The notes: generated by a model not told the origin, from the letters alone. A DNA stretch of 64,000 nt from Patescibacteria group bacterium (GCA_038064835.1 JBBTSD010000001.1:28422-92421); one strand, 5' to 3'; positions 26,696 to 61,999 are shown, counted from the first letter of the stretch. Numbers and translations are program-made.

Positions 26696-26835
26696 CGGAA
26701 TAGTGTACTACCTAAAATGGTCCTCAGATAAAGAATCTATCACGCACCTTCAGACGCAAGAATACTTTCCACATGGTGGCATTTGATGAAAAATGCCGGT
26801 GCTATACTGAAAGAGCATTTTTAATTATATTTTCT

Positions 26836-48320: not shown

Positions 48321-48713
48321 ATGGTGCGCGTAAAGATTATAGTTGCTCTGGCACTTGCAGTACTTTTGGGCGGATTCGTACTTCTTTTGTACTTGGCGCA
48401 AAGCAATGTGGCGCACAGCGTTGCTATGACAGATGATATGCAGGTGGCAATCGTACTTACACCAACCGGATATGAACCAAAAGAAGTGCGTGTAAAAAAG
48501 GGAACAACCGTTTTGTTTACCACTACCATCGGACATGCACATTGGCCATCGTCGGATTTGCATCCGTCGCACATGATTTACGCCGAGTTTGATCCGAAAC
48601 GACCACTAAAATCCGACGAGGCTTGGAGCTTTGGTTTTGACAAAGTGGGTACCTGGGGATTTCACGATCATATACGCGCCTATTTCACCGGGGTTATTTA
48701 TGTCGAAGAATAG
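48321..48713 (+). CDS. Membrane-anchored cupredoxin-like fold protein lacking the Cys copper ligand
   Basis: YEPKEVRVKKGTTVLFTTTIGHAHWP...FGFDKVGTWGFHDHIRAYFTGVIYV resembles a cupredoxin beta-sandwich with H/D/H where C/H/M would be. Confidence 0.45.
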   Translation: MVRVKIIVALALAVLLGGFVLLLYLAQSNVAHSVAMTDDMQVAIVLTPTGYEPKEVRVKKGTTVLFTTTIGHAHWPSSDLHPSHMIYAEFDPKRPLKSDEAWSFGFDKVGTWGFHDHIRAYFTGVIYVEE

Positions 48714-50003: not shown

Positions 50004-50414
50004 ATGGCGACAATCAATCAACTCATAAAGAAAAACCGAAAGGACCCGGTGCGGCGTTCGCAGGTCATGGCACTCGGGCGCGGTTTTAATCGTCTCAAGA
50101 ATCGTCCGTCGTTCTACCCGTCTCCATTCAAGCGTGGTGTGTGCACCAAAGTAACCACCAAGACTCCTCGTAAGCCAAACTCTGCTATCCGCAAGATTGC
50201 GCGTGTGCGTTTGACAAACGGTATGGAAATCACCGCGTATATTCCTGGTGAAAAGCACACCCTGCAAGAGCACTCAGTGGTGTTGGTCCGCTCAGGTCGT
50301 GTTAAGGATGTTGGCTTGCGTTACACGGTTGTGCGTGGCAAGTTTGACGCCGCAGGTGTCGACGGGCGTCGTCGTGGCCGATCTCGCTATGGGGCCAAGA
50401 AGCCAAAGAAATAA
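50004..50414 (+). CDS. rpsL: 30S ribosomal protein S12
   Basis: [10 protein letters not shown]...[73 protein letters not shown]. Confidence 0.95.
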
Positions 50415-50438
50415 GGAAGTAAGGAATAAAAATAATAT

Positions 50439-50900
50439 ATGCGCCGACCATTTAAAAAGAAGCATCGAGCTACTCCCGACCCTGTTTACGGTTCTCTACT
50501 CGTTTCCAAGCTCACCAACTATGTAATGGAGCGCGGCAAGAAAGACACTGCTCGTCGCGTTGTATACGCTATGCTCGAAGATCTCAAGAAAGAAGGTGAC
50601 CCCATTACTATCCTCGAGACGGCTATCAAGAATGTTGAGCCGGCAATGGAGGTGCGATCTCGTCGTGTGGGAGGAGCAAACTACCAAGTGCCTACCCCAG
50701 TGCGTCCTGAACGCCAGCTGGCCCTCTCTCTTCGCTGGATTATCGGCGCCGCTCGCGCAAAGAAAGGGACTCCTCTCGCACAAAAACTTTCCACAGAAAT
50801 TCTCGCGGCTCACAAAGGAACCGGAGAAGCGGTCGGCAAGCGCGACAACATGCACAAGATGGCCGAGGCCAACAAGGCATTTGCACACTTTGCGTGGTAA
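50439..50900 (+). CDS. rpsG: 30S ribosomal protein S7
   Basis: Full-length uS7 match (…ANYQVPTPVRPERQLALSLRWIIGAARAKKG…). Confidence 0.95.
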   Translation: MRRPFKKKHRATPDPVYGSLLVSKLTNYVMERGKKDTARRVVYAMLEDLKKEGDPITILETAIKNVEPAMEVRSRRVGGANYQVPTPVRPERQLALSLRWIIGAARAKKGTPLAQKLSTEILAAHKGTGEAVGKRDNMHKMAEANKAFAHFAW

Positions 50901-50927
50901 TACCATCGCCACTAGTCGAACGCTTTA

Positions 50928-50951
50928 GACACCTTCTTTTTCTTTGGTGTC
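50928..50951. terminator. Hairpin (GACACC-ttctttttcttt-GGTGTC) between the rpsG stop and the converging SagB-like gene
   Basis: A 6-bp stem with a large pyrimidine loop; weak. Confidence 0.3.
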
Positions 50952-50962
50952 GACGGTAATGC

Positions 50963-51679
50963 TCACAATTGGGTGATTTCCTTTTGTCGGGCCGCCAGCG
51001 CTCCGTACACCACCAGCTCTTCTTGGGGATCAATATCAAGCACTTTTTCAATTGCCTGGTGGTCGAGGCCTCCGAACGGGCGCAGGCGCACTCCGAGCGC
51101 TGTAGCAACGAGCGCCATGTTTTGCATGATATGACCCGCTTCAAGGAGGGCGAGCGGATACGCGAAGTCGTGGTACTTGCGCGAAGATTTTTCAAGGGAG
51201 GCAGTTAGAAGTAGTACATTCGCTCCTTGCAAAGACTCTGTTCGCGAGACATATGTCTCGACTTTTTCTTGTGTGGACAACGCCCACAGATGCTCGAGAG
51301 CATGCACATCAGGCCGGTAGTGAAAAACTGCACGCTGGAGTGTCTCGACGGAAAATGCGAGTAGATATGCTTCAATAGGATAGTACCCACCCCCAGAGGG
51401 ATATGGACGGCGTTTTCGTTCCGTGAGCTTCATCGCTCCGCCGAGCAGGTGTGAGATGTCCGAAAAAGAGAGTGGTGCGCACGCGGAGGGCATATCAGAG
51501 TTTCTCAATTCGAGCGCTCTGAAGAGGGATACTTCTGGATCAGAGAGGTGGTCCATTGGTACGAGCTCCATGCGCTCGTATCTCTTTGCCAGGCGTGTCT
51601 CGTGCAGATGTGCTGTTCCATGTGTAAAACGGCTGTCTTGAAAGTGTTGATGTATTTCCCGGTAAAGATTGTGAGGCAT
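50963..51679 (-). CDS. SagB-type (McbC-like) FMN-dependent dehydrogenase of the nitroreductase superfamily
   Basis: KRRPYPSGGGYYPIEAYL is the hallmark motif of SagB-type dehydrogenases. The likely start is at 51679 (MPHNLYRE...), 7 nt downstream of the YcaO stop; the ORF track extends it to 51796. Confidence 0.75.
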   Translation of the reverse strand: MPHNLYREIHQHFQDSRFTHGTAHLHETRLAKRYERMELVPMDHLSDPEVSLFRALELRNSDMPSACAPLSFSDISHLLGGAMKLTERKRRPYPSGGGYYPIEAYLLAFSVETLQRAVFHYRPDVHALEHLWALSTQEKVETYVSRTESLQGANVLLLTASLEKSSRKYHDFAYPLALLEAGHIMQNMALVATALGVRLRPFGGLDHQAIEKVLDIDPQEELVVYGALAARQKEITQL

Positions 51680-51686
51680 GACAGAG

Positions 51687-53216
51687 TTATGCAAACGGAT
51701 GGGGCTCCTCGGCGAAAGGAGTTTCTCGTGGAGTGTATCCGAAAAGTTTTGGAATTTCAGTGAGACGCGCACCACCAAGACAGGGAAAACGCTCATTGAT
51801 ATGCAAAGGTTGTAACTCGGGAATCACGACGAATTCCACATGCCATGGTGTCGGATTTTTCGGGGAGATGCCGAGCGGGACAGAGGCGCATCCATACCCA
51901 CGCTCTGTGCACCACCCTACGATTCTATCCAGATGTTCGTCTTTGGTGTCGTGTTCCCACATGGCTTGTACGGGCTTTTCCAGCACTCCATTGGTGAGAA
52001 ATGCGAGGCGCGCCGCGCGTTTTGTATCCGTCCAATAAACCGCGCGCTCGAAATGCTTGATGCGATGTGGCACGATTGCATCTACGCTGTAGAGGTGCCG
52101 CCACGAAGAGCGAATATTTTTTCGAATACGAAGTGCCTCGCGTATCGCATGTGCGGCCGCTTCCGACAAGCGCGCATGTACGCCAAGCCCGAGTACGACA
52201 GGAACCCCGCCAGGAGCATCATCTCGGATGACAGCGCAGACAACATGCGCAGGTGCATCCGTAGGGAGCTTGATAATATCCGCACGCAGACGATAGCGCT
52301 CCATCCGTTGCAGTAACAGCGAGAGCTCATCGGACTTGTGTGCCAAATAATCGAGCGCGATGCGTGGGCAGGTGAGCTGATTAAGCCACATGATCATAAA
52401 CGCATCGCGCTCGATTATCTCGAGCGCACCATTAAGAAGTGCAAATTCCCGTGTTGGTCCGGTAGCGAGCCCTGTAGTAATTCTGGGTCGTAGCATCGGC
52501 TCTCGTTTTTCCTGGAGATACTTTCCACTTGAAGTGATTTGTGCGGGAATATACATACGTGCGTTTGTTTTAAGGCAACGACCTCTAACCCATGCAAATG
52601 CTGAATCATGCGGTACTGCGGTGGAGCGCTGTGCTCGTTGCGCCCTAGAAAAACCCGCAAAAGAGGAAATGGGGAGGTGTCGCTTCTTGGCCATATCTTG
52701 TTCTGTGCTCCAGCACAGGCCCTGCATGTGTTCGGTGTCATAGCGCCACAGGTGTCTCTCCAGACATTCGGCAAGGGCGGAAGCCAGCGCCTGCGGGTCA
52801 GATGTCGCTGAAGACCCGCCGGCCGCCTCGTCCTTCGCGAATTGCGCGCTCCATGCGTGCATGTGTGGCTCGTCAGGCATGTGGCCGGTTTGTCGAATAC
52901 CGAGAAGTATTCCAGCATCTTGAAGATTACGCACAATAGGGCGAAGCGGCAGCATGTCGCTCTGAGAAAGACGAGTGGCGTCGCGTACCAGCTCGGCTCC
53001 AAACGAAGCCTCAACAGACTCCGCAAATGCCGCCCGTGCTTTTTCGAACACATTTCCCGAACGATACTCTGTAACGACTCGAGATACAGAGCGAAGTGTC
53101 ATGAGGGGAGTATACCAATGGGCAGATATCGTCGAGCATTGACATATCTCCGTAGCGGTTGTGTTCCGCCGGTTGTGGACACGATACCCTGATACCATGA
53201 CGCCATCTTCCGCCAT
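51687..53216 (-). CDS. YcaO-domain protein (standalone cyclodehydratase-type YcaO with a C-terminal PxPxP-like tail)
   Basis: YcaO motifs ALAECLERHLW and TTGLATGPTREFALLNGALEIIERDAFMIMW; the C-terminus is ...EEPHPFA. Confidence 0.8.
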   Translation of the reverse strand: MAEDGVMVSGYRVHNRRNTTATEICQCSTISAHWYTPLMTLRSVSRVVTEYRSGNVFEKARAAFAESVEASFGAELVRDATRLSQSDMLPLRPIVRNLQDAGILLGIRQTGHMPDEPHMHAWSAQFAKDEAAGGSSATSDPQALASALAECLERHLWRYDTEHMQGLCWSTEQDMAKKRHLPISSFAGFSRAQRAQRSTAVPHDSAFAWVRGRCLKTNARMYIPAQITSSGKYLQEKREPMLRPRITTGLATGPTREFALLNGALEIIERDAFMIMWLNQLTCPRIALDYLAHKSDELSLLLQRMERYRLRADIIKLPTDAPAHVVCAVIRDDAPGGVPVVLGLGVHARLSEAAAHAIREALRIRKNIRSSWRHLYSVDAIVPHRIKHFERAVYWTDTKRAARLAFLTNGVLEKPVQAMWEHDTKDEHLDRIVGWCTERGYGCASVPLGISPKNPTPWHVEFVVIPELQPLHINERFPCLGGARLTEIPKLFGYTPRETPFAEEPHPFA

Positions 53217-56200
53217 GAACCCTGATTCTCAAAGAACAAAAGCGTACAAGATTTCCGCACACCAAGATTCTTTGGCCGGACGCCCCGGCAAGGACACTGG
53301 CGCGGATACCGACTTGATTACTTCTAAAAACGAATGGACGGTGGCTCTGGCACATGCGCGCGCGGTGATCGAAGCAGAACTCCTCGGGAAAAAGGCACCA
53401 CAGTTTCCTTTCTCAAAGGCGCCACAGTTCCTGAGCCCGGGTACGGCAGGGGTGTGTATATGGGTTGGGGGCTCTCTCCGGGGTTCGCATATAGTCGAAG
53501 GCGCACTTTTGGGGAATGCAGTGAGCGAATCGGCGGCACAAACAGTGCAAGACCCTCGATTCAAACCGATTGCGGAAGCGGATAGTAAAAACATGAGAGT
53601 ACAGGTGAGTCAGATTTCTTCTGTGTGGGTACGCATTGATCCACGCACCGGGACGCTCGCGCACAATAAAGGGTATGCACTCGTGCACGGAGGGAAGACA
53701 GGGTGGTTTCTTCCGGAGGTTTTTAGCATACGGACATTTACCAGTATTTCACAGTTGGCACGAGCGCTGGCACGAGAAAAGTTGCATCTTCCGGAGGAAG
53801 TTGCATTCGGGAAAGATACCGAGTTGTATACATTCGAAGTATACGAGGTGGTGGAGTCTATGTGCGAGTCCGAGCTGTCAGTGGGCGGTGCTCAGACATA
53901 CCCCGTGCATCTCGATGGTCCAATACCTCGCGAAGCTCGCACTGATCGCGAGAGCTCCATCTCTCGGATGGTAGCGTATGCGGTACGCTGTTGTAACGAG
54001 GACGGCAGTATCACCTGTGCGCTATCGGAAGGGATCGCAGACGCTCGCTACGAATGGGGGAGAGCATTTTTTTCAATTGCTGCCATGGCCGAATATGCGC
54101 GCACAGCACCCTCCGCACTAACCAAGGCGGCTCATCGTGCGTATCACTACCATCGGTCACATCTTTTTGGGAAGCGTGGCGCACATCTTCCGGACACAGC
54201 GCTTTTGTATGCATACCTGGGGCACGCGGCGCTTTCCTTCGGTTTTGTAGACGATGCGCGAATGTGTTCCGAATATATTAAGGGGGTGGTCGAACGGGAA
54301 AGATTTTCTCCGATACCGTTCGGTCAAGCGGCGAGTTTCCTAAGCAGAATGATTCTGGTAGGTCTGGATATAAAAGCGCATGCCGCGGCGTACTGCTTGG
54401 CAACTCTTGCGCGCCATTTCGAAGAGGATACAAACAAGTCGACAGCGTCATATGCAGAACTTGCCACGGCAAGTGCCATCTTCTACAAAGCAACACAGAG
54501 TGAATGGGCGCTCGGTCTTGCCCGCATGACAGCGCGGTGGCTCATGAGCGAACAACTTTCTGACGGAGCGTTTAGAGGTTCGCAGTCGAGCACATCTGCA
54601 TATACACGAGGTACGGGGAAGGTAATCGAAGCGCTCGCCGAATACGCCCGTTCGTGCCCGCTTTCAGAAGACGAGCGCGCTCGCGTCGTCACCGCTATGG
54701 GTCGTGGCGAATCGTGGATGATGCGCATGCAGTATTCTGCAGAGAGTAGCTTTGCGCTATCAAAAACCTTTCGAGAGAAAGTGCAGGGGGGATTTCGTCA
54801 CGACTACTTCAGCAAAGATGCATGGCTTGATGCAGTGTGGCACTTCCTGCTTTACAAAGCGCGCCGGGAAAGCAATGACGAAAAGCGAGCACATGGTCAT
54901 CAGACGATAGAATTCTTGCCTCTGCGAAATGCCCCGCGTTTTTTTAAGGAGCACGGCGAAGATTCGCGTCTTCGCACCGACAAGTACGCTGCTCTGGGGT
55001 GGGCGTTCATGAAGAAGCTGGGTGTGGGGTCTGCAATTGAAAAATTATCCACTCGAGAGCTTCTGGATGCGTGGACAATTCTGCGACGAGCGCGCATCAC
55101 AGAGAGTGAGGTTGCGCACACTATGCGGTACATGGCGTTTCCGGACACGCCTGGATTTTTTGCGTGCCACCCAACTCTTTCCTATGAGCCTGGAAGCACC
55201 GACGGGAGGACAAAACAGCGCAGGTATGCTCATGGATTCAGTGAATCGTGGGAGCGCGCACTCGCACAGTCAGTGGGAGAAATGTATGAACGGTACTTTC
55301 TCTCGCTGTATAAGAGCAACGAGTTGCGCCTTGCGTCGGTAAATGAACTAAAGGCTGATCATGTGGCGCATCTCGACCCAGCATATCTGACTCGGCTTTC
55401 CGAATCACAAGTCAAGGCTCTCGGCTCTCGATCGTGGGACGAGAGTGTGCCGTTGCGCTGGGTGGAAGGAGTGCGGGTGAGTTCAGGCAAGAAAGTGCTT
55501 ATTCCTGCGCAACTCGTGTTTTGGAATTACTCGTGTGCGAATGACGAGGCAAGACTCTGCGAGAGCAATTCCAGCGGTCTGGGGGCAGCGGGAAGCTCTG
55601 CGGGGGCGCTTCTTGCCGGGCTACATGAAGTGTTGGAGCGGGATGCTTTTCTTGCGCACTGGCTCACTAAAACACCGCTAGAGCGCATTACTCTTGCGAG
55701 CGTGCCCGGAGAGAAATGTGCGCGCTTTGTCGACCGCGCGCGAAAGCATGGGGTTCGCATGAGTTTGTTTCGAGCAGGAACGACGGGAGGTATTGATGCA
55801 TTCTATGCGCTTCTTGAAGACGAGAGAGGTCGAGGAAATCCGCGTGTGGTGCTTGGCGGTTCCTGCAAATCGAATCCTGTGGCCGCGATTGAACGCGCCC
55901 TCGAGGAAGTGTGGTCAATATATTTCGCTGTGCGCGCAGAAGAGAAAGGCTCGTATGAACTGCTGGCCGAAGATTATGTGCCGTTCAAGAGCCCGCTTGC
56001 CATAGGCAAACGAGTGTCACTCTGGTCTCACCAAGATACCGCTCCTGAAATCTCCTTTCTTCTAAAAGTAAAAGAGCAAGACTTTAGTGTACCCTCGCGT
56101 ACTGGTACCAGGAACGCACATGAAGAGCTCCTCACAACTGTGGAAGACATTGAAAAGCAAGGGGTCGGCTACGAGGTGTTTGCGTACCATGCGGTGCACC

Positions 56201-56385
56201 CACTTCTCGCAGAGGCGGGGATATTTGCGACGCGCGTGATAGTCCCGGCGCTCATACCGCTCTACTATAGTGAACACATGGCACCGACACTGCTTACACA
56301 TCGACTTGCGCAGTGGAGCGCACAACAGGGTTTTGGGGACAAAAAGTGCGCTATTTCCAATGTGTTTCCACACCCGTACCCGTGA
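53161..56385 (+). CDS. 1074-aa fusion: AMMECR1-like N-domain (Cys->Ser in LRGCIG) + ~450-aa alpha-helical region + C-terminal YcaO domain ending PHPYP
   Basis: AMMECR1-like GVCIWVGGSLRGSHIVEGALLGNAVSESAAQTVQDPRFKPIAEAD...RVQVSQISS; YcaO motifs VGEMYERYFL and SSGLGAAGSSAGALLAGLHEVLERDAFLAHW. The true start is probably an internal ATG (~53197 or 53215), because the annotated 5' end overlaps the divergent YcaO gene. Confidence 0.75.
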   Translation: MFRRLWTRYPDTMTPSSAMNPDSQRTKAYKISAHQDSLAGRPGKDTGADTDLITSKNEWTVALAHARAVIEAELLGKKAPQFPFSKAPQFLSPGTAGVCIWVGGSLRGSHIVEGALLGNAVSESAAQTVQDPRFKPIAEADSKNMRVQVSQISSVWVRIDPRTGTLAHNKGYALVHGGKTGWFLPEVFSIRTFTSISQLARALAREKLHLPEEVAFGKDTELYTFEVYEVVESMCESELSVGGAQTYPVHLDGPIPREARTDRESSISRMVAYAVRCCNEDGSITCALSEGIADARYEWGRAFFSIAAMAEYARTAPSALTKAAHRAYHYHRSHLFGKRGAHLPDTALLYAYLGHAALSFGFVDDARMCSEYIKGVVERERFSPIPFGQAASFLSRMILVGLDIKAHAAAYCLATLARHFEEDTNKSTASYAELATASAIFYKATQSEWALGLARMTARWLMSEQLSDGAFRGSQSSTSAYTRGTGKVIEALAEYARSCPLSEDERARVVTAMGRGESWMMRMQYSAESSFALSKTFREKVQGGFRHDYFSKDAWLDAVWHFLLYKARRESNDEKRAHGHQTIEFLPLRNAPRFFKEHGEDSRLRTDKYAALGWAFMKKLGVGSAIEKLSTRELLDAWTILRRARITESEVAHTMRYMAFPDTPGFFACHPTLSYEPGSTDGRTKQRRYAHGFSESWERALAQSVGEMYERYFLSLYKSNELRLASVNELKADHVAHLDPAYLTRLSESQVKALGSRSWDESVPLRWVEGVRVSSGKKVLIPAQLVFWNYSCANDEARLCESNSSGLGAAGSSAGALLAGLHEVLERDAFLAHWLTKTPLERITLASVPGEKCARFVDRARKHGVRMSLFRAGTTGGIDAFYALLEDERGRGNPRVVLGGSCKSNPVAAIERALEEVWSIYFAVRAEEKGSYELLAEDYVPFKSPLAIGKRVSLWSHQDTAPEISFLLKVKEQDFSVPSRTGTRNAHEELLTTVEDIEKQGVGYEVFAYHAVHPLLAEAGIFATRVIVPALIPLYYSEHMAPTLLTHRLAQWSAQQGFGDKKCAISNVFPHPYP

Positions 56386-56470: not shown

Positions 56471-56947
56471 GTGTTCGGAACGCGGTACTATGTGTGCATG
56501 GTTGCGGTCCAAGTATCAAAAGATTTTTTGAGGCGGGCTGGGTATGCGCTTTTGGTAATACTCGGTGTGGGTTTATCGTTAGGCGCCCTCTTGTTCCCTC
56601 GCGCATCCGGCACTTCACACGGGCTGACTGGAAAGGACACAGCCCATGCGGATGTCCCTGGTTGCGGAGGGGGAGGATGCGCTGAATCATGTGGTAGCTC
56701 ATGTGGTAGCTCATGCGACAGTTCATGCGACAGTTCATGCTCGTCATGCACGGCGTGTAGCACGGATGGGGGGTGTGATTCAGGGTGTTCATGTGATTGT
56801 GGTTGTGCTGGTGGGTGTGGAGGGGACTGTTCTGGTGGGTGTAGCGATGGGTGTGGCTCGGCTGATGGGTGTGGCTCGGCTGATGGGTGCGGGTGTGGAT
56901 GCTCCGAAGGTGGTGGAGGAGGTGAGGGCGAAGGAGAGGGCGCTTAG
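56471..56947 (+). CDS. Putative RiPP (TOMM-type) precursor: hydrophobic or signal-like leader + ~95-aa Cys/Ser/Gly/Asp-rich core (25+ Cys)
   Basis: The core is GCGGGGCAESCGSSCGSSCDSSCDSSCSSCTACSTDGGCDSGCSCDCGCAGGCGGDCSGGCSDGCGSADGCGSADGCGCGCSEGGGGGEGEGEGA. The alternative ATG is at 56498 (MVAVQVSKDFLRRAGYALLVILGVGLSLGALLF...). It sits immediately downstream of the YcaO fusion gene. Confidence 0.6.
   Translation: MFGTRYYVCMVAVQVSKDFLRRAGYALLVILGVGLSLGALLFPRASGTSHGLTGKDTAHADVPGCGGGGCAESCGSSCGSSCDSSCDSSCSSCTACSTDGGCDSGCSCDCGCAGGCGGDCSGGCSDGCGSADGCGSADGCGCGCSEGGGGGEGEGEGA
56686..56900 (+). repeat. Short in-frame tandem nucleotide repeats (12-18 nt units) inside the precursor core
   Basis: TCATGTGGTAGC x2, TCATGCGACAGT x2, GATGGGTGTGGCTCGGCT x2 plus a partial copy; these encode SCGS/SCDS/DGCGSA repeats. 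Confidence 0.7.
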
Positions 56948-56982
56948 TTAGCTTACGCCAAAAATTTCACTACACTAAATAT

Positions 56983-58104
56983 ATGCAAGCAGAAAGTTTG
57001 AAATCAATATATCGGGGAGTTTTCATAATCGCTTTTCTCGCAGTTTCTGTGGTCGCCTTCTATGTTCAATACGAGTTAAAAGGACAGAGTGCGATGTCTA
57101 AGGAGGAAATCCGCGGGGCAGAAGAGCTCGCGCTTCGTGGCCAATATGATAAGGCACTTGCGATGGCTCGGAATACAGCCAGTGCCGCCTCGGACCCTCG
57201 CAGTATCTTTGACGCGCGACTCACGGCCATATTTTCTGCTTTTATGGGAGGGGATACTGACGCCAGGCTTGCAGCTGTGCGAGTCGCGAAAGAGCAGTAT
57301 GCGATTGCCGCCGAGCCGCGTGAGCGCTCATACATAATCGGTATGCTCATTGGTTTTATTACAATAGATAGAAACCCAAAAGTGTTCGGAGAGGTATTTT
57401 CAGGAGATATCTTTGGCGCACTTCGCGCAAAAGATGGAGATCCTTTGGTTTCTCTAAAGAATCTTGCAGAGCTTTCTATAGTCGAAAACCCAACATCAGG
57501 AGCATATCTCCAGATAGCGACGCTCGACGCCGCTCGTATTCTAGGCGCCAAAGCTCTCAAGCTTAGCAAGGAAGATCGGCAAGCCCATGCTAAAAACATA
57601 CTCACATTGCTCGAATCCGCGGCGGCTGTTTTTTCCGATGAGCGCACGCATATTCCCCGTACACTCTTCGGCAAGCTTCAGTTCGCGAGTTACTACAGCC
57701 GGACAGGATATCTGTACGGTGCGGTGGCACTAGTTATCCCTGATTATTTCAAGCAATCGGAGGAGGCGTATCAGACGCTCTATGCACTTCGCGCAAAAGA
57801 AGAGGGTGGGAAGCAAGGCCTGATTTCGTCATGGGTTCCTCATGCGTATCTCAATCATGCACTGTATCTTGATTCGGTCGGGGGTGTTTCTAGGCGCGGA
57901 GATATGCAAGAAGTACTCAGCTCGCTGGTTGGTTTAGTGCAAGCCGATCGGGCTGTGCACGAAAAATCCTTCCTGGGTTTCTTGCGCAACGCGAAAGAAA
58001 TGGAAGCGAAGTATGGTTCGTATGACGCCAAGAACCTACGCCACCTTGCGACCTTATCTCCAGAGCTCAAAGATTTCCTAGTCCAAGAAGGGTGGATATT
58101 CTAA
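56983..58104 (+). CDS. Membrane-anchored alpha-helical hypothetical protein; last gene of the inserted island
   Basis: N-terminal TM (VFIIAFLAVSVVAFYV); the remainder is predicted helical; no family recognised. Confidence 0.5.
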   Translation: MQAESLKSIYRGVFIIAFLAVSVVAFYVQYELKGQSAMSKEEIRGAEELALRGQYDKALAMARNTASAASDPRSIFDARLTAIFSAFMGGDTDARLAAVRVAKEQYAIAAEPRERSYIIGMLIGFITIDRNPKVFGEVFSGDIFGALRAKDGDPLVSLKNLAELSIVENPTSGAYLQIATLDAARILGAKALKLSKEDRQAHAKNILTLLESAAAVFSDERTHIPRTLFGKLQFASYYSRTGYLYGAVALVIPDYFKQSEEAYQTLYALRAKEEGGKQGLISSWVPHAYLNHALYLDSVGGVSRRGDMQEVLSSLVGLVQADRAVHEKSFLGFLRNAKEMEAKYGSYDAKNLRHLATLSPELKDFLVQEGWIF

Positions 58105-58208: not shown

Positions 58209-60353
58209 ATGAATCGAGATTATCCACTGGAGAGGGTGCGCAACTTCGGCATCATCGCACACATCGACGCGGGCAAGACCACCACCTCTGAGCGTATTCT
58301 CTTTTACACGGGTGAATCTCATAAAATCGGTGAAGTGCACGACGGTAACACCGTGACCGACTGGATGGAACAGGAGCGCGAACGAGGTATCACGATTACC
58401 GCCGCCGCAATCACTTGTTTCTGGAATCCTTCGTACATGGGCACCGACCTCTCATTCAAACATCGTTTCAATATCATCGATACTCCAGGCCACATCGACT
58501 TCACTTCTGAAGTACAACGATCAATGCGCGTCCTCGACGGCGCGATTGTCGTGTTTGACGGTGTTGCTGGTGTAGAGCCACAGACCGAGACCAACTGGCG
58601 CTACGCCGAAGATGCAAAAGTACCCCGTCTTTGTTTCGTGAATAAGCTTGACCGCACAGGCGCATCTTTTGATAAATCGTTTGGCATGATTCGCGAGCGG
58701 CTGTCGAAAAACGCGGTGCGTATGCAAATTCCTATTGGCGAAGAAGATGCGCTTGAAGGCGTCATTAATCTTATAGATATGCAGGCGTTTCGTTTTGAGG
58801 GAGACAAGGGGCGCGTCGTCATTCCTATGCCGGTACCCGAATCTCACAAAGCAGAGGCAGAGAAGTACCGTGCCGAACTCATCGAAGCGATCGTCGAGCA
58901 CGACGAGGTGCTTATGACAGGATACCTTGAGGGGAAGGAACCGACCGTCCCTGTGCTTAAAGCCACGCTCAGGAAGGCAGTTATCGAAAATAAAATCTTC
59001 CCCACCTTCTGTGGTTCCGCACTTAAAAATGTTGGAGTCCAGCTGGTCCTTGATGGTGTTGTGGACTACCTCCCGACACCGCTTGACCTTCCGCCAGCAA
59101 AGGGAATCCATCCTGATACAGGCGAAGTGATCGAACGCAAACCAGCCGACTCTGAGCCATTCTCTGCGCTTATTTTTAAACTCCAGACTGACCCGTTTGT
59201 AGGTCAGCTCTCATTCTTTCGCGTATATTCAGGTCAACTAGAGGTGGGAAGCTATGTCTACAATGCATCAAATGGCACCAAGGAGCGTGTTGGCCGTATG
59301 GTTCGCCTCCAGGCCGACAAACGAGAAGAAATAAAAAAGGTGTTCACTGGTGAAATCGCGGCACTCTTGGGCGCAAAGGATGCCAAGATTGGGCACACCA
59401 TTTGTGATGAAAAGAATCCAATAATTCTCGAAGAGATTAAATTCCGTCAGCCAGTTCTCTCTGCTCGTATTGAGCCAAAGACCAAGGGCGATCAAGAAAA
59501 GATGGGTATGGCATTAGCAAAACTTTCCGACGAAGATCCAACATTCCGTATTCGCAGTGACGAGGAAACAGGCGACACCATCGTGTCCGGTATGGGCGAG
59601 CTCCATCTCGATATCATTGTTGATCGGATGCGTCGCGAGTTTGGCGTTGAGGCAACACTCGGCAAGCCGCAAGTCGCTTACCGCGAGACCATTCAGGGTA
59701 GTGCTGAAGTTGAAAATAAATACATCAAGCAGACCGGAGGTCGCGGGCAGTACGGCCATGTCAAAATTCGCGTCAAACCACTCGAGCCATTGGTGGAAGG
59801 CAAGAAGATTCCTGCAAATACGACTCGTGAAGACCACTTTGAGTTCATTAATACCGTTAAAGGAGGCGCAATTCCTCAGGAATATATTCCTGCTGTCGAG
59901 AAGGGTATTCGTGAAGCGCTTGAGCGCGGAGTCCTTGCGGGTTATCCGGTTGTCGATGTCTCTGTCGAGTTGTTTGACGGGTCGTTTCATGAAGTCGACT
60001 CATCCGAAATTGCCTTCAAGATTGCCGGTTCCATGGCGTTTCAGGAGGCTGCACGACAGGCACGACTTGCGCTCCTTGAGCCAATTATGAAAATCGAAGT
60101 TGTTACCCCGGACAAATTCATGGGCGATGTTACGGGTAATCTCAATGGCAAGCGCGGACAAGTACAATCTATCGACGATCGCTCAGGCGGCCTCAAAGTT
60201 ATTATTGCGCATGTACCGCTCTCTGAAATGTTTGGGTACACCACAGCACTTCGTTCGATGACTGAAGGCCGTGCGACATCCATGATGGAATTCGATCATT
60301 ATGCAACGGTACCAAAGAATGTAGCAGATGAGGTTGTTGCAAGTAGAAAGTAG
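58209..60353 (+). CDS. fusA: Elongation factor G
   Basis: MNRDYPLERVRNFGIIAHIDAGKTTTSERILFYTG...; full-length EF-G. The ORF track opens at 58092; the true ATG is at 58209. Confidence 0.95.
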   Translation: MNRDYPLERVRNFGIIAHIDAGKTTTSERILFYTGESHKIGEVHDGNTVTDWMEQERERGITITAAAITCFWNPSYMGTDLSFKHRFNIIDTPGHIDFTSEVQRSMRVLDGAIVVFDGVAGVEPQTETNWRYAEDAKVPRLCFVNKLDRTGASFDKSFGMIRERLSKNAVRMQIPIGEEDALEGVINLIDMQAFRFEGDKGRVVIPMPVPESHKAEAEKYRAELIEAIVEHDEVLMTGYLEGKEPTVPVLKATLRKAVIENKIFPTFCGSALKNVGVQLVLDGVVDYLPTPLDLPPAKGIHPDTGEVIERKPADSEPFSALIFKLQTDPFVGQLSFFRVYSGQLEVGSYVYNASNGTKERVGRMVRLQADKREEIKKVFTGEIAALLGAKDAKIGHTICDEKNPIILEEIKFRQPVLSARIEPKTKGDQEKMGMALAKLSDEDPTFRIRSDEETGDTIVSGMGELHLDIIVDRMRREFGVEATLGKPQVAYRETIQGSAEVENKYIKQTGGRGQYGHVKIRVKPLEPLVEGKKIPANTTREDHFEFINTVKGGAIPQEYIPAVEKGIREALERGVLAGYPVVDVSVELFDGSFHEVDSSEIAFKIAGSMAFQEAARQARLALLEPIMKIEVVTPDKFMGDVTGNLNGKRGQVQSIDDRSGGLKVIIAHVPLSEMFGYTTALRSMTEGRATSMMEFDHYATVPKNVADEVVASRK

Positions 60354-60370: not shown

Positions 60371-61999
60371 CTACGGTGTTGCCGTGGTGATGCAATGCAG
60401 AGCGTTATTAAAGGTCGGGACATAGGTCCGGCTCGTCTCTTGATCATACAAAATCTTGCCAACAATCCTTTCTGGGAACTGGATGTGACCTAGTTCTTTT
60501 CCTGTTGTAGGGTCGATTTTGTACAAGACACCGTCGTTCGAACCTATAAACAACGAACCCTTGATGAGGGCAGGGCTACTAAAGATTCTCCCGCGTGTCA
60601 AAAATTTCCAATGCAGTTTTTTATGCACGGTGTCGTAGGAGTAGACAAACTTATCGAGTGAGTTGATGAATAGTGTATCGCCAGTCCATAGTGGGGTGGA
60701 GTATATCGCCTCGAGTGTTTCAAATGTATCTGAGATGGCTAGAGTCTTGGTGTCAATAATATGACACTTCTTGTCGAATGCTCCGAAGGCGACTTTCGAT
60801 CCATCAGATTTTTCTGCAAACGATGCACGAATCGGCGCGCCGATAGTATGCTCCTGTAGTTGTTCGCCTGTTTTCGCACGGTACATTCGGACAATCCCAT
60901 CATTAGAGCCACAGAAGAGCAGATTATTTTTTTCAGACACATAGGGAGAGCAGTGGGTAAGACCGGTGTGCTGACCACGCCACCGTTCTTCTCCTGTCTC
61001 TGGGTCAAGTGCTACAACGGCGCCTCGTTTTTTCCAGAGACCAAATTCGAGACCAATGTACAGTAGGTTATTTTTTGTGGAAACGGCAGGAGAAGATCCG
61101 ATCCAGTCAGCATCCATAAATACCCACTTTGTTTTGCCTGTTTTTGCATCGAGTGCGTACAGATTGCCGTCGTACGCACCAAAGTACACGATATCGTTGA
61201 ATACCAGGGGTGAAGAATAGATCATTTTCCCCTTGTCTCCAAAACGGACCGTGTGGGTCCAGAGAGTAGAACCGTTTTGTTTATTGATACAGTAAAATAC
61301 GCCCGAATCAGTACCAAAAAGTAATGTGTCCCCATGCATTACCGGTGTCGACTTGGGGACAACATTTTTGTAATTCACTGAGGTGGGAGAAGTGGTGAAT
61401 GTCCAATGATGGGTAAATGGGAGTGGTTGTAGCTCGCGTACATTTTCAAAATTCCTGACACCCAACGACTCTTGGAAATCGTTGAGTTCGAAAAGGGTGA
61501 CAAGGCGGATGCCATTTTGTGTCAGAAAATCGTAAAACGAAGTATCTCGGAAACGCACAAGGCAAAAAATTGCCTCGACCTGCAATCCCGCCTCCCGCAA
61601 TGTGGCGATCTGCTTCTCTACAGACTTCCCGCTATTCAAAATGTCGTCTACCAGAATGATGGGCTCTTGTGTAGGTGATCCTTCAATGGACTTGTGTAAG
61701 TCGTGTTTCTTCCTGCCTTTGCGTATAAAAAGACCATTTGCCCTAATGTTGCGTGTTTCAGCAGAAAAAACCAGGGTGGTCAAAAGAGGGATGGATGCTG
61801 ATTCAAGGCCGCATACTTGGAGGGTTTGCTTGTCTGGAAACGCCTCGAAAAAAGCCGTCGCATATACATCCATAAATTCCTTCGTCATGCTGACATTTCG
61901 AAAATCAAAAATCCATCGCTCCTCGCCTGTGTCTTGGAACCGTGAAAAAGTCTTTTGCTCAATCAGTTTCTTTAATGCCGCATGTCGTGGAGAGCTCAT
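60371..61999 (-). CDS. Fusion of a type-I phosphoribosyltransferase-like domain and a PQQ-like beta-propeller repeat domain
   Basis: PRPP-binding-like EPIILVDDILNSGKS; the C-terminal half has repeated G.LYALDA.TGK..W / ALDPETGEERW PQQ-type blades. Confidence 0.55.
   Translation of the reverse strand: MSSPRHAALKKLIEQKTFSRFQDTGEERWIFDFRNVSMTKEFMDVYATAFFEAFPDKQTLQVCGLESASIPLLTTLVFSAETRNIRANGLFIRKGRKKHDLHKSIEGSPTQEPIILVDDILNSGKSVEKQIATLREAGLQVEAIFCLVRFRDTSFYDFLTQNGIRLVTLFELNDFQESLGVRNFENVRELQPLPFTHHWTFTTSPTSVNYKNVVPKSTPVMHGDTLLFGTDSGVFYCINKQNGSTLWTHTVRFGDKGKMIYSSPLVFNDIVYFGAYDGNLYALDAKTGKTKWVFMDADWIGSSPAVSTKNNLLYIGLEFGLWKKRGAVVALDPETGEERWRGQHTGLTHCSPYVSEKNNLLFCGSNDGIVRMYRAKTGEQLQEHTIGAPIRASFAEKSDGSKVAFGAFDKKCHIIDTKTLAISDTFETLEAIYSTPLWTGDTLFINSLDKFVYSYDTVHKKLHWKFLTRGRIFSSPALIKGSLFIGSNDGVLYKIDPTTGKELGHIQFPERIVGKILYDQETSRTYVPTFNNALHCITTATP

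What the first reader, a model, noticed from the sequence alone, without database searches (positions are those of the whole stretch)
50963..53216. Divergent minus-strand operon: second standalone YcaO (…PHPF tail) tightly coupled (7-nt gap) to a SagB-type dehydrogenase
The island therefore has two YcaO paralogs on opposite strands with back-to-back or overlapping 5' ends (53161 and 53216). Two YcaOs in one cluster could mean division of labour (e.g. azoline formation plus thioamidation/amidine formation, or Cys-specific against Ser-specific cyclodehydration), or a catalytic/non-catalytic pair. The ~150-residue N-terminal extension of the standalone YcaO is unassigned and could be a leader-recognition element.
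Basis: partly seen in the sequence, partly recalled or inferred. Interest (0 to 1): 0.6.

Follow-up and report, generated by a model that had tools for sequence, protein, structure and literature searches.

The report
Partner-less YcaO–SagB azole-forming pair (CPR)
This is a real, intact two-gene operon for turning cysteines of a peptide into thiazole rings, from an uncultured Patescibacteria genome; it is notable because its family lacks the usual helper protein, targets a conserved membrane-anchored Cys-rich peptide, and here sits beside a second such enzyme fused to an AMMECR1 domain.

Summary
On the minus strand a YcaO gene (51687-53102) is followed after 7 nt by a SagB-type FMN dehydrogenase gene (50963-51679). 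Relatives place the YcaO start at 53102, not 53216, so the two divergent YcaO genes are 112 nt apart and do not overlap.

- **Enzymes intact:** both YcaO domains keep the residues aligned with E. coli YcaO E75/E78/R79/E199/E202/R203/E290. SagB keeps the RPYPSGG FMN motif and the catalytic Lys-Tyr pair.
- **N-terminal extension:** about 60 helical residues rather than 150. It is not RRE-like, and no E1-like partner is encoded in the window.
- **Family context:** 27 Patescibacteria loci share one layout. A signal-anchored Cys/Gly/Ser/Asp-rich peptide with an invariant AHAD(V/A)P motif, then four secreted or anchored proteins, lie divergent from YcaO, SagB and a PRTase-β-propeller protein.
- **Core versus add-on:** the standalone YcaO is the conserved core enzyme. 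The plus-strand one is an add-on: an AMMECR1 + (α/α)6-toroid protein fused to a different YcaO subfamily. That pair is split into adjacent genes elsewhere, and fused just upstream of the same peptide type in at least two other lineages.

YcaO+nitroreductase clusters in these bacteria were already reported in 2020. The partner-less design, the signal-anchored precursor and the AMMECR1 partner appear undescribed.

The parts
50963..51679 (-). SagB-type FMN-dependent azoline dehydrogenase (238 aa), starting 7 nt after the YcaO stop codon
   Evidence: TIGR03605 113.4 bits (cutoff 78.4), Pfam Nitroreductase 2.2e-15. It aligns to McbC 6gos_C at 2.8e-15: RRPYPSGG matches McbC R117/R118, K168-Y169 match McbC K201-Y202, and 'RLRPFGG' matches R233. 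R59, S61, R91, Y93, P94, S95, G97, K168, Y169, E180, G182, H183 and N187 are >=95% conserved in 27 family members.
51687..53102 (-). Standalone YcaO ('YcaO-A', 471 aa; an upstream in-frame ATG at 53216 is probably not used)
   Evidence: Pfam YcaO 1e-42. AF2 model pLDDT 91.5. Foldseek top hits are LynD 4e-22, MusD, M. jannaschii and M. kandleri YcaO, TruD, Ec-YcaO and McbD. E112, E115, R116, E228, E231, R232 and E322 align with Ec-YcaO E75, E78, R79, E199, E202, R203 and E290. The C-terminal tail is EPHPFA. Start supported.
53103..53214 (.). 112-nt divergent intergenic region between the two YcaO genes
   Evidence: Follows from the homologue-supported starts. No sigma-70 consensus promoter was found. 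A TGGTATACT extended -10-like string lies 6 nt upstream of ATG 53102 on the minus strand; this rests on reading the sequence only.
53215..56385 (+). Fusion protein (1056 aa): AMMECR1 domain (~53350-53841) + (α/α)6 toroid (~53947-54879) + complete YcaO of a second subfamily, 'YcaO-B' (~54900-56385, tail FPHPYP)
   Evidence: Pfam AMMECR1 8.2e-10 and YcaO 5.5e-49. The AF2/Foldseek model (mean pLDDT 60; toroid blocks 66-93) matches PH0010 (AMMECR1) at 2e-6 and GH76/GH88/GH105-type (α/α)6 barrels. The catalytic Glu/Arg set is kept. The two halves are separate adjacent genes in about 10 metagenome loci. Other full-length fusions exist: P0126, P0127, P0129, P0130.
56498..56947 (+). Candidate substrate 'CysPep' (149 aa; mechanical ORF from GTG 56471): basic N-terminus, hydrophobic helix, linker, AHADVP motif, then a 98-aa Cys/Gly/Ser/Asp core with 22 Cys
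   Evidence: Homologous peptides lie beside the YcaO in 25 of 27 family loci; the other two loci are cut at the YcaO start. Public gene calls use a wrong frame. The gene contains perfect 12-nt and 18-nt tandem repeats.
56983..58104 (+). 'P373': N-terminally anchored, Pfam-less 373-aa protein, the most constant neighbour of CysPep
   Evidence: Present in 21 of 27 family loci directly after CysPep. Also present in YcaO-less loci L084, L091 and L095 and in L105. No Pfam or NCBIfam hit.
60371..61999 (-). Orotate-PRTase-like domain fused to a BamB/PQQ-like β-propeller (542 aa); in relatives this gene lies downstream of SagB, usually directly
   Evidence: Cluster present in 13 of 27 loci, downstream of SagB in most. 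40% identity to the L014 copy. TIGR00336 pyrE domain 57.8 bits (below cutoff), PQQ_2 2.9e-30.

Best explanation
The minus-strand operon encodes the two catalytic enzymes of a linear azol(in)e-peptide-type maturation system found in a subset of Patescibacteria (CPR).

**Proposed mechanism**
- YcaO-A uses ATP to cyclodehydrate Cys (and possibly Ser/Thr) residues of the neighbouring Cys/Gly/Ser/Asp-rich peptide (CysPep, 56498-56947) to thiazolines.
- The translationally coupled SagB-type flavoprotein oxidises them to thiazoles.
- The system works without the usual E1-like/RRE 'C protein'. Recognition is presumably by the YcaO itself, through its family-specific ~60-aa helical N-terminus or its active-site region. 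The target would be the conserved leader: the N-terminal MVAI-like start, a hydrophobic helix and the AHAD(V/A)P motif.
- The leader looks like a long Sec signal or signal-anchor with an A-x-A site. The modified tail is therefore probably exported or displayed outside the membrane. There it would meet the co-encoded secreted or anchored proteins (P373; in relatives also a TPR protein, a Cys-rich ~370-aa protein and a ~150-aa protein).
- The divergent AMMECR1-toroid-YcaO-B fusion is an accessory second cyclodehydratase module acting on the same peptide. Its AMMECR1-toroid half plays the partner role for YcaO-B.

**Shown:** domain identities, intact catalytic residues, gene order and its conservation, and the peptide family.

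**Inferred:** that CysPep is the substrate, azole chemistry, partner-independence, export and cleavage at AHA|D, and the split of work between the two YcaOs.
For: 1. **Enzymes are intact.**
   - YcaO fold and ATP/Mg residues are present.
   - SagB scores above the curated cutoff and keeps the McbC-type FMN arginines and the Lys-Tyr catalytic pair.
   - The two genes are 7 nt apart.
2. **YcaO followed by SagB is conserved.**
   - It holds in 25 of 27 Patescibacteria loci.
   - It also holds in distant standalone homologues in cyanobacteria, Chloroflexi and Actinobacteria.
3. **CysPep has the usual signature of a RiPP precursor.**
   - It lies next to the YcaO in every locus that has upstream sequence.
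   - The leader is conserved and the core is hypervariable: 27% Gly, 16.5% Ser, 16% Cys, 12% Asp.
4. **No E1-like, ThiF or TfuA protein is present.**
   - None among the conserved neighbours or the other window ORFs of at least 200 aa that were scanned.
   - The 8109-aa ORF was not scanned.
5. **The leader resembles a signal-anchor.**
   - The N-region has net charge mostly +1 to +7.
   - A 19-aa hydrophobic stretch has mean KD 2.26.
   - The A-x-A motif lies 14-29 aa after it.
   - The co-operonic proteins have N-terminal anchors or signals.
6. **Precedent:** Sec-signal RiPPs with Cys-derived heterocycles exist, the bufferins (PMC11626156).
7. **The fused YcaO-B lies directly upstream of a CysPep-type gene** in the window, in L103/L104 and in L105.
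8. **AMMECR1-toroid genes are repeatedly coupled to YcaO-B genes**.
9. **Prior report:** YcaO+nitroreductase clusters in CPR genomes were already classed as LAP clusters (PMC7298704).
Against: - No chemistry was observed; substrate assignment rests on adjacency and composition.
- YcaO-A scores below the curated cutoff of the SagD/TOMM model (187 against 219 bits). Its tail ends P-H-P-F-A rather than the canonical P-x-P-x-P.
- Azoline-forming YcaOs normally need an E1-like or Ocin-ThiF partner, and none is present.
- If the hydrophobic leader drives co-translational membrane insertion, the Cys-rich tail would leave the cytoplasm before cytoplasmic enzymes could act.
- The A-x-A site is 14-29 aa from the hydrophobic segment, further than in typical signal peptidase I substrates.
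- CysPep-like peptides with very few Cys occur with P373 in loci that have no YcaO or SagB (L084, L091). The peptide/P373 module therefore has a function that does not depend on azole formation.
Confidence: 0.65

Rival explanations
1. Classical secreted antibiotic: the cluster makes a diffusible linear azole peptide toxin like microcin B17 or phazolicin, which is cleaved from its leader and released to kill competitors. It would not be a cell-envelope-associated product.
For: It has the same enzyme pair and the same type of Cys/Ser/Gly-rich core as LAP bacteriocins. Sharrar et al. interpreted CPR YcaO+nitroreductase clusters this way. The hypervariable, repeat-driven core fits an arms-race molecule.
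Against: The conserved neighbourhood has no ABC exporter, immunity gene or dedicated leader peptidase. It holds four secreted or anchored proteins and a PRTase-propeller instead. The leader contains a hydrophobic helix. Cores reach 98-133 aa, long for a LAP. The peptide/P373 module persists without YcaO.
Confidence: 0.2
2. CysPep is not the substrate. It is an unmodified Cys-rich surface or metal-binding protein, and YcaO-A/SagB act on another peptide or protein encoded elsewhere.
For: The predicted topology puts the Cys-rich tail outside the cell. CysPep-like/P373 modules exist without YcaO. No RRE was identified to tie enzyme to peptide.
Against: A CysPep gene accompanies the YcaO in 25 of 25 informative loci, usually as the divergent first gene. 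The YcaO-less peptides are Cys-poor (2-3 Cys), against a median of 8 Cys per core in YcaO-linked ones. The fused YcaO-B is also placed directly upstream of CysPep in three lineages. No alternative Cys/Ser-rich small ORF is conserved.
Confidence: 0.1
3. Different YcaO chemistry: thioamide, amidine or ATP-dependent peptidase activity (as in MusD) rather than azoline formation, at least for one of the two YcaOs.
For: YcaO-A is below the SagD-family cutoff and has a non-canonical last residue. MusD, a YcaO peptidase, is among the best sequence and fold matches. Two YcaOs in one locus could carry out two chemistries.
Against: No TfuA or sulfur-delivery partner is present. An obligately coupled SagB dehydrogenase only makes sense after azoline formation. 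The best family model for both YcaOs is the thiazole/oxazole-forming SagD family. The P-H-P motif at the C-terminus is kept.
Confidence: 0.08
4. Ribosome-related role: because the island sits between rpsL-rpsG and fusA, and E. coli YcaO is annotated as an S12 methylthiotransferase accessory factor, the YcaO acts on a ribosomal protein.
For: The island lies between S12/S7 and EF-G. One relative (L004) also has the peptide operon directly upstream of fusA. JGI auto-annotation labels homologues 'S12 methylthiotransferase accessory factor'.
Against: S7 and S12 are not near the YcaO in any locus outside this genome, and EF-G is near it only in L004. No RimO was found. The C-terminal dimerisation domain of E. 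coli-type YcaO is absent (alignment). SagB coupling and the Cys-rich peptide point elsewhere.
Confidence: 0.03

Closest known systems
Linear azol(in)e-peptide (LAP/TOMM) synthetases, e.g. microcin B17 McbBCD, streptolysin S SagBCD
   Same: It pairs a YcaO cyclodehydratase with a SagB/McbC-type FMN dehydrogenase. The same FMN arginines and Lys-Tyr catalytic pair are present. The precursor core is Cys/Ser/Gly-rich. The YcaO C-terminus carries a P-x-P motif.
   Different: - There is no E1-like/RRE 'B/C' scaffold protein, fused or separate.
- YcaO-A is below the SagD-family cutoff.
- The tail ends ...PHPFA, not ...PxPxP.
- The leader carries a hydrophobic helix and an AHAD(V/A)P motif.
- There is no ABC exporter, immunity gene or leader protease.
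- The conserved partners are secreted or anchored proteins and a PRTase-β-propeller.
LAP clusters of candidate phyla radiation genomes (Sharrar et al. 2020, mBio, PMC7298704)
   Same: These are YcaO next to a nitroreductase in CPR genomes, including 51 Parcubacteria. Of the 110 clusters reported, 89 had that adjacency. This locus is almost certainly of that kind.
   Different: The paper's example (Microgenomates) had a peptidase and an 84-aa precursor. It does not describe the signal-anchored AHAD(V/A)P peptide family, the eight-gene synteny, the missing E1-like partner or an AMMECR1-fused YcaO. A text and supplement search found nothing on these.
Standalone YcaOs of bottromycin biosynthesis (from my own knowledge, not tested here)
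   Same: They are YcaO enzymes that act without an E1-like or TfuA partner.
   Different: Those enzymes recognise a follower peptide, make one thiazoline or a macroamidine, and are not coupled to SagB. Sequence relatedness was not examined.
Heterocycloanthracin-type precursors with repeated Cys-Xaa-Xaa motifs (from my own knowledge)
   Same: The cores are long and low-complexity, made of Cys-Gly/Ser repeats, and evolve by repeat expansion.
   Different: Those systems use a fused E1-like/YcaO cyclodehydratase and cytoplasmic-type leaders. No sequence homology of the leaders was seen.
Bufferins (MNIO-modified RiPP metallophores, PMC11626156)
   Same: The precursor carries a Sec-type N-terminal signal instead of a classical leader. 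Its Cys residues are converted to heterocycles in the cytoplasm before Sec export, and no dedicated exporter is needed.
   Different: The chemistry and enzymes differ (MNIO + DUF2063 making 5-thiooxazoles). Bufferins are small folded proteins with 4-6 Cys. Export and any metal binding of CysPep are inferred here, not shown.
AMMECR1 / 'AmmeMemoRadiSam system protein A' (TIGR04335)
   Same: The N-terminal domain of the fused YcaO matches AMMECR1 (Pfam 8.2e-10; PH0010 fold 2e-6). Radical SAM genes lie near some split homologues (L087, P0129 locus).
   Different: It scores below the TIGR04335 cutoff (36 against 99 bits). The window protein reads LRGS where, from memory, canonical AMMECR1 has LRGCIG. 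It is fused to an (α/α)6 toroid and coupled or fused to a YcaO. No Memo partner was seen.

Membership tests
YcaO superfamily (PF02624) | Domain match above the curated threshold | tested here: met
   147.1 bits against 25.7 for YcaO-A; 167.7 bits for the fused YcaO-B.
YcaO superfamily (PF02624) | ATP/Mg2+-binding Glu/Arg set (E. coli YcaO E75, E78, R79, E199, E202, R203, E290; this residue list is from my memory of Dunbar et al. 2014) | tested here: met
   The aligned positions are invariant in an alignment with E. coli YcaO. YcaO-A has E112/E115/R116/E228/E231/R232/E322. The YcaO-B domain has E17/E20/R21/E133/E136/R137/E226. The same positions are invariant in 34 family members.
YcaO superfamily (PF02624) | YcaO fold | tested here: met
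   AF2 pLDDT 91.5. Foldseek hits LynD 4e-22, MusD, M. jannaschii and M. kandleri YcaO, TruD, Ec-YcaO and McbD.
Azoline-forming TOMM/LAP cyclodehydratase, SagD family (TIGR03604) | Score above NCBIfam's curated cutoff | tested here: not met
   It is the best family hit for both YcaOs, but both fall below the 219.25-bit cutoff: YcaO-A 187.1 bits, YcaO-B 179.6 bits.
Azoline-forming TOMM/LAP cyclodehydratase, SagD family (TIGR03604) | C-terminal Pro-rich PxPxP motif with a terminal Pro in the active site (McbD P394/P396, PMC6395948) | tested here: inconclusive
   YcaO-A ends P-H-P-F-A; the family tail is PHPF[A/S/V]. YcaO-B ends P-H-P-Y-P, which is canonical. P467 and P469 are invariant and H468 nearly so.
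Azoline-forming TOMM/LAP cyclodehydratase, SagD family (TIGR03604) | E1-like or Ocin-ThiF-like partner carrying an RRE, fused or adjacent | tested here: not met
   None was found among the conserved neighbours or the other window ORFs of at least 200 aa that were scanned; the 8109-aa ORF was not scanned. The N-terminal 100 aa have no Pfam hit at E<=1, and the model shows three helices and no β-sheet.
Azoline-forming TOMM/LAP cyclodehydratase, SagD family (TIGR03604) | Adjacent Cys/Ser/Thr-rich precursor with a conserved leader and variable core | tested here: met
   The CysPep family is present in 25 of 25 informative loci. In the window it lies 3.4 kb away because the fusion gene intervenes.
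Azoline-forming TOMM/LAP cyclodehydratase, SagD family (TIGR03604) | ATP-dependent cyclodehydration activity on the peptide | not testable with these tools
   This needs reconstitution and mass spectrometry.
SagB-family azoline dehydrogenase (TIGR03605) | Score above the curated cutoff | tested here: met
   113.4 bits against 78.4.
SagB-family azoline dehydrogenase (TIGR03605) | Catalytic Lys-Tyr pair (McbC K201/Y202) | tested here: met
   K168-Y169 align to McbC K201-Y202 (residue roles from PMC6395948). They are >=95% conserved in 27 family members.
SagB-family azoline dehydrogenase (TIGR03605) | FMN-contacting arginines (McbC R82, R117, R181, R233) | tested here: inconclusive
   - The equivalent of R117 is present (RRPYPSGG; R91 invariant).
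- R233 aligns to an Arg that is at least 60% conserved.
- An invariant R59-x-S61 lies where R82 is expected, but outside the aligned stretch.
- R181 aligns to Ser in a loop.
TfuA-dependent thioamide-forming YcaO | Adjacent TfuA gene | tested here: not met
   No TfuA domain was found in any neighbour with Pfam data. The match to TIGR03266 is 65 bits against a cutoff of 365.
CPR LAP cluster as described by Sharrar et al. 2020 | YcaO next to a nitroreductase in a CPR genome, with a Cys/Ser-rich small ORF | tested here: met
   The window's YcaO is NCBI-labelled 'Patescibacteria group bacterium'. Gene order; the paper's description.
CPR LAP cluster as described by Sharrar et al. 2020 | Cluster-encoded peptidase for leader removal | tested here: not met
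   No peptidase is among the conserved neighbours. The M50 and M10 peptidases in the window lie 3.5-7 kb away and are not syntenic in relatives.

The most novel reading that the evidence does not exclude
The YcaO-SagB pair is the tailoring arm of a conserved Patescibacteria cell-envelope system rather than an antibiotic cluster. It would convert a signal-anchored, repeat-evolving Cys-rich peptide into an exported or surface-displayed polythiazole chain. That chain would work with four co-encoded extracytoplasmic proteins, for example in metal binding or host attachment. The system would do so without any RRE/E1-like partner. AMMECR1-(α/α)6-toroid proteins would be a previously unrecognised class of YcaO partner, giving AMMECR1 its first concrete biochemical context.
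Probability: 0.3. Interest if true: 0.8.

Novelty: new variant of a known kind. Interest (0 to 1): 0.58.

Why it matters
Azole-forming YcaO enzymes are thought to depend on an E1-like/RRE partner. A whole family that pairs only with SagB and a signal-anchored substrate would widen the rules for substrate recognition.

It would also add a YcaO-based counterpart to the recently found Sec-exported, Cys-derived heterocycle peptides (bufferins).

The recurrent coupling and fusion of AMMECR1-toroid proteins with a second YcaO subfamily offers a testable function for AMMECR1, a widespread domain of unknown role.

These genes sit in the reduced genomes of episymbiotic Patescibacteria and are surrounded by secreted proteins. 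The product may therefore matter for envelope or host-interaction biology, not only for natural-product mining.

Tried and rejected
1. **RRE/wHTH in the YcaO-A N-terminus.** Pfam found nothing at E<=1, and the AF2 model shows helices only. Rejected as an RRE.
2. **Catalytic/non-catalytic YcaO pair.** Rejected, because both keep the Glu/Arg set.
3. **Overlapping 5' ends.** Rejected after start-site comparison.
4. **Link to ribosomal protein S12 or the str operon.** S7/S12 occur near the YcaO only in this genome, and EF-G additionally only in L004. Treated as coincidence or local synteny.
5. **E1-like, ThiF, Ocin-ThiF or TfuA partner.** Sought among the conserved neighbours and the window ORFs of at least 200 aa other than the 8109-aa ORF. 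None was found.
6. **Sigma-70 promoter scan of 50800-53400.** No hit, uninformative for this phylum.
7. **Word-indexed protein searches.** The search with the fusion gave only 4 hits and the search with P373 only itself. This first made the fusion look unique. The exhaustive HMMER search corrected that.
9. **AF2 model of AMMECR1-toroid.** Built from only 3 sequences, it has moderate confidence (pLDDT 60). Only the domain-level fold assignment is used.
10. **Papers not held.** Dunbar 2014 and Burkhart 2017 were unavailable, so the E. coli YcaO residue list is from memory.
11. **Sharrar 2020 supplements.** They held nothing on Kaiserbacteria, YcaO or precursors.
12. **L106.** This is another full-length fusion with no CysPep-like ORF beside it, so the fusion-peptide link is frequent but not universal.


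Full report
**1. What is in the sequence**

The finding covers two minus-strand genes.
- The mechanical ORF 51687..53216 (509 aa) has a YcaO domain: PF02624, E 1e-42, 147 bits against a cutoff of 25.7.
- Its TAA stop is followed by 'ctctgtc' and an ATG at 51679. That ATG opens a 238-aa ORF ending at 50963.
- The 238-aa ORF is a SagB-family dehydrogenase. TIGR03605 scores 113.4 bits against 78.4, Pfam Nitroreductase gives 2.2e-15, and the best solved relatives include McbC at 2.8e-15.

The divergent ORF 53161..56385 carries AMMECR1 and a second YcaO domain. The island lies between rpsL/rpsG (50004-50900) and fusA (58209-60353).

**2. Start sites**

The identical protein is annotated at NCBI as a 471-aa 'YcaO-like family protein' from a Patescibacteria MAG. 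An 82%-identical homologue is also 471 aa. In most related loci 110-113 residues precede the first catalytic Glu. Here that is 111 residues from ATG 53102 and 149 from ATG 53216. With the plus-strand gene called from ATG 53215 (1056 aa), the two genes are separated by 112 nt rather than overlapping. No sigma-70 consensus promoter was found there. By eye, a TGGTATACT string sits 6 nt upstream of ATG 53102.

**3. Are the enzymes intact?**

I aligned YcaO-A, the fused YcaO domain, E. coli YcaO (taken from NC_000913.3) and five homologues.
- The positions corresponding to E. coli E75, E78, R79, E199, E202, R203 and E290 are invariant. The list of ATP/Mg ligands is from my memory of Dunbar et al. 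2014; that paper is not held.
- The same residues are invariant in 34 family members.
- The AF2 model of YcaO-A is confident (pLDDT 91.5). It matches LynD (4e-22), MusD, the M. jannaschii and M. kandleri YcaOs, TruD, E. coli YcaO and McbD.

SagB aligns to McbC as follows (residue roles from PMC6395948).
- RRPYPSGG covers McbC R117/R118.
- K168-Y169 match the catalytic K201-Y202.
- An Arg matches R233.

In 27 family members R59, S61, R91, Y93, P94, S95, G97, K168 and Y169 are at least 95% conserved.

**4. The N-terminal extension**

With the corrected start, about 100 residues precede the Pfam domain.
- In the model, residues 1-62 form three helices of lower confidence (pLDDT 51-76). The canonical N-terminal strands of the YcaO fold follow.
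- The first 100 residues have no Pfam match even at E<=1.
- Non-Patescibacteria homologues align only from about residue 84 onward.

The segment is family-specific and could bind the family-specific leader. It is not an RRE/wHTH.

**5. The family and its neighbourhood**

More than 150 homologues were found, labelled Patescibacteria, Kaiserbacteria or Paceibacterota wherever a source names them. A genome scan returned 25 further Patescibacteria loci at 35-50% identity. Clustering all ORFs within 8 kb of the YcaO in 27 loci gave a striking common layout:

~150-aa secreted protein < ~370-aa Cys-rich secreted protein < ~280-aa TPR protein < P373 < CysPep <|> YcaO > SagB > PRTase-β-propeller.

- SagB follows the YcaO in 25 of 27 loci.
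- CysPep is present in 25 of 27 (one search adds L025). The other two loci are cut at the YcaO start.

CysPep has the following features.
- A conserved M-(V/A)-(A/V)-(I/V) start.
- A basic stretch, mostly net +1 to +7.
- A 19-residue hydrophobic segment (mean Kyte-Doolittle 2.26), usually followed by P-R/K.
- A 14-29-residue linker.
- A nearly invariant (V/I)-A-H-A-D-(A/V)-P motif.
- A hypervariable tail of 26-133 residues: 27% Gly, 16.5% Ser, 16% Cys, 12% Asp.

The window's copy (56498-56947) has the richest core, with 22 Cys in 98 residues, and contains perfect 12-nt and 18-nt tandem repeats. Public gene calls at this locus and in L004 chose a wrong frame.

In the window the layout is rearranged. 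CysPep and P373 lie downstream of the fusion gene, and the PRTase-propeller gene is at 60371-61999. The TPR, ~370-aa and ~150-aa genes were not found in the window.

**6. No classical partner**

None of the conserved neighbours is E1-like, ThiF-like or TfuA. P373 and the ~370-aa protein have no Pfam family, and the others are TPR or PRTase + BamB/PQQ-like propeller. The window's other large ORFs that were scanned encode unrelated functions; the 8109-aa ORF was not scanned. The order standalone YcaO then SagB also holds for 25-32%-identical homologues in cyanobacteria, Chloroflexi, Actinobacteria and others. Some distant homologues do carry about 450 extra N-terminal residues, which I take to be fused cyclodehydratases.

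**7. The second YcaO**

The plus-strand protein has three parts.
- An AMMECR1 domain.
- An all-helical ~310-residue domain.
- A complete YcaO of another subfamily, only 23% identical to YcaO-A, ending in the canonical PHPYP.

The AF2 model is of moderate confidence (mean pLDDT 60). It matches PH0010 (AMMECR1) and (α/α)6 barrels of the GH76/GH88/GH105 type.

The word-indexed search made the fusion look almost unique. Two further searches corrected this.
- A metagenome scan with the AMMECR1-toroid half found 16 loci. In about 10 of them that protein is a separate gene immediately upstream of, or overlapping by a few bases, a YcaO-B-type gene, sometimes with SagB.
- The exhaustive HMMER search found other full-length fusions (P0126, P0127, P0129, P0130). 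It also found dozens of separate YcaO-B (~500-530 aa) and AMMECR1-toroid (~610-660 aa) proteins.

Their contexts are telling.
- In L103/L104 the fusion is followed directly by a CysPep-type gene (hydrophobic helix, 'ASADVP', Gly/Glu/Cys tail).
- In L105 (38% GC) the order is YcaO > SagB > fusion > CysPep ('IAHADS…CGNSGGCGCSGG…') > P373-like > TPR/Cys-rich protein.
- The P0129 locus combines a YcaO, the propeller protein, TPR proteins and the fusion.
- In L084, L091, L095 and L098 the unfused AMMECR1-toroid gene sits beside P373. In L084, L091 and L098 a Cys-poor CysPep-like peptide ('HALADAP') is also present. The propeller and TPR genes are seen in L084 and L091. None of these loci has a YcaO.

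The fusion is therefore a Rosetta-stone link between AMMECR1-toroid proteins and YcaO-B, and both are tied to the CysPep/P373 module. L106 is a fusion without a nearby CysPep.

**8. Mechanism**

*Shown:*
- two intact YcaO domains;
- an intact SagB;
- tight coupling of the two genes;
- conserved adjacency to a leader/core-type Cys-rich peptide;
- absence of an E1-like partner from the regions examined.

*Inferred:*
- YcaO-A phosphorylates backbone amides preceding Cys (possibly Ser/Thr) and closes thiazolines, and SagB oxidises them to thiazoles.
- The enzyme recognises the conserved leader directly.
- The hydrophobic leader then directs Sec-dependent export or anchoring, with possible signal-peptidase cleavage after A-H-A.
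- YcaO-B, helped by its AMMECR1-toroid half, modifies a further subset of positions.

Bufferins provide precedent for Cys-derived heterocycles installed in the cytoplasm on Sec-signal precursors (PMC11626156).

*Weak points:*
- The A-x-A site is unusually far from the hydrophobic segment.
- Co-translational insertion would compete with modification.
- Cys-poor peptide/P373 modules exist without any YcaO.

**9. Comparison and novelty**

Sharrar et al. (2020) already reported LAP-type clusters in CPR genomes. They found 110 clusters in 93 genomes, 51 of them Parcubacteria, and 89 clusters had a nitroreductase next to the YcaO. The basic finding is therefore a member of a known kind.

I could not find the following described in the held literature.
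- A partner-less YcaO-SagB design coupled to a signal-anchored AHAD(V/A)P precursor family.
- The eight-gene synteny dominated by extracytoplasmic proteins.
- AMMECR1-toroid proteins as recurrent YcaO partners. No held paper contains both 'AMMECR1' and 'YcaO'.

I therefore rate it a new variant of a known kind, of moderate-to-good interest. Most of the interest lies just outside the coordinates of the original finding.

Noticed in passing
window 34-24363 (+): A single open reading frame of 8109 codons occupies the first 24 kb of the window. It is a giant protein and was not analysed further.
   Followed up: no
window 56471-56951; L004 9550-9964: Public gene calls for the Cys-rich peptide use a wrong overlapping frame: 99/101 aa at 56646/56652-56951 here, and 61 aa in L004. 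The conserved frame is the one encoding the hydrophobic helix, AHADVP and the Cys-rich tail. The peptide family is therefore probably absent from protein databases.
   Followed up: yes
L084 7971-11759; L091 2398-5763; L095; L098: Some Patescibacteria-like contigs carry a Cys-poor CysPep-like peptide ('...LPHALADAP' followed by an Asp/Gly/Ser/Thr tail with 2-3 Cys) and P373. Next to them lie an unfused AMMECR1-toroid protein, an MBL-fold protein, an anchored rhodanese, an AMP-dependent ligase and an FAD-binding oxidase, with no YcaO or SagB. This looks like an alternative tailoring set for the same peptide/P373 module.
   Followed up: partly
window 50004-50900 and 58209-60353; L004 3551-5692: The 7.2-kb island splits rpsL-rpsG from fusA. 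In L004 the peptide operon also runs directly into fusA, but S7/S12 are not nearby. No other related locus shows ribosomal-gene adjacency.
   Followed up: partly
window 60371-61999 (-); relatives downstream of SagB, usually directly: An orotate-PRTase-like domain with a PRPP-loop motif is fused to a BamB/PQQ-like β-propeller. It is conserved in 13 of 27 loci and also in the YcaO-less L084 and L091. Its role is unknown; it could be a scaffold or a nucleotide-dependent tailoring enzyme.
   Followed up: partly
window 53215-55230; alignment A3: In the window protein the AMMECR1 domain fused to the YcaO reads LRGS where, from memory, canonical AMMECR1 has the LRGCIG motif (Cys replaced by Ser). The two homologues in A3 read LRAS and LRGS.
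   Followed up: no
L016 18310-20513; L023 12908-15344; L017, L019, L021: Several Kaiserbacteria/Paceibacteria contigs carry either a second complete peptide/YcaO/SagB set or an extra YcaO-B-like + SagB pair without AMMECR1. Multi-YcaO arrangements are therefore common in this group.
   Followed up: partly
window 56687-56889: The Cys-rich core gene contains perfect short tandem repeats: 12 nt x2.4, 12 nt x2.5 and 18 nt x2.4. They encode SSCG, DSSC and CGSADG units, which suggests core length evolves by repeat slippage.
   Followed up: yes
window 24445-26271, 26773-29028, 48321-48713: Several predicted secreted proteins have cupredoxin or plastocyanin-like domains, peptidoglycan-binding domains, or PKD domains with Cys-rich tails. 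A link to metal handling by the Cys-rich peptide is speculative.
   Followed up: no
L087 4717-7563; P0129 locus: Radical SAM/SPASM genes lie next to AMMECR1-toroid + YcaO-B modules in some metagenome contigs. This echoes the 'AmmeMemoRadiSam' association of AMMECR1.
   Followed up: no
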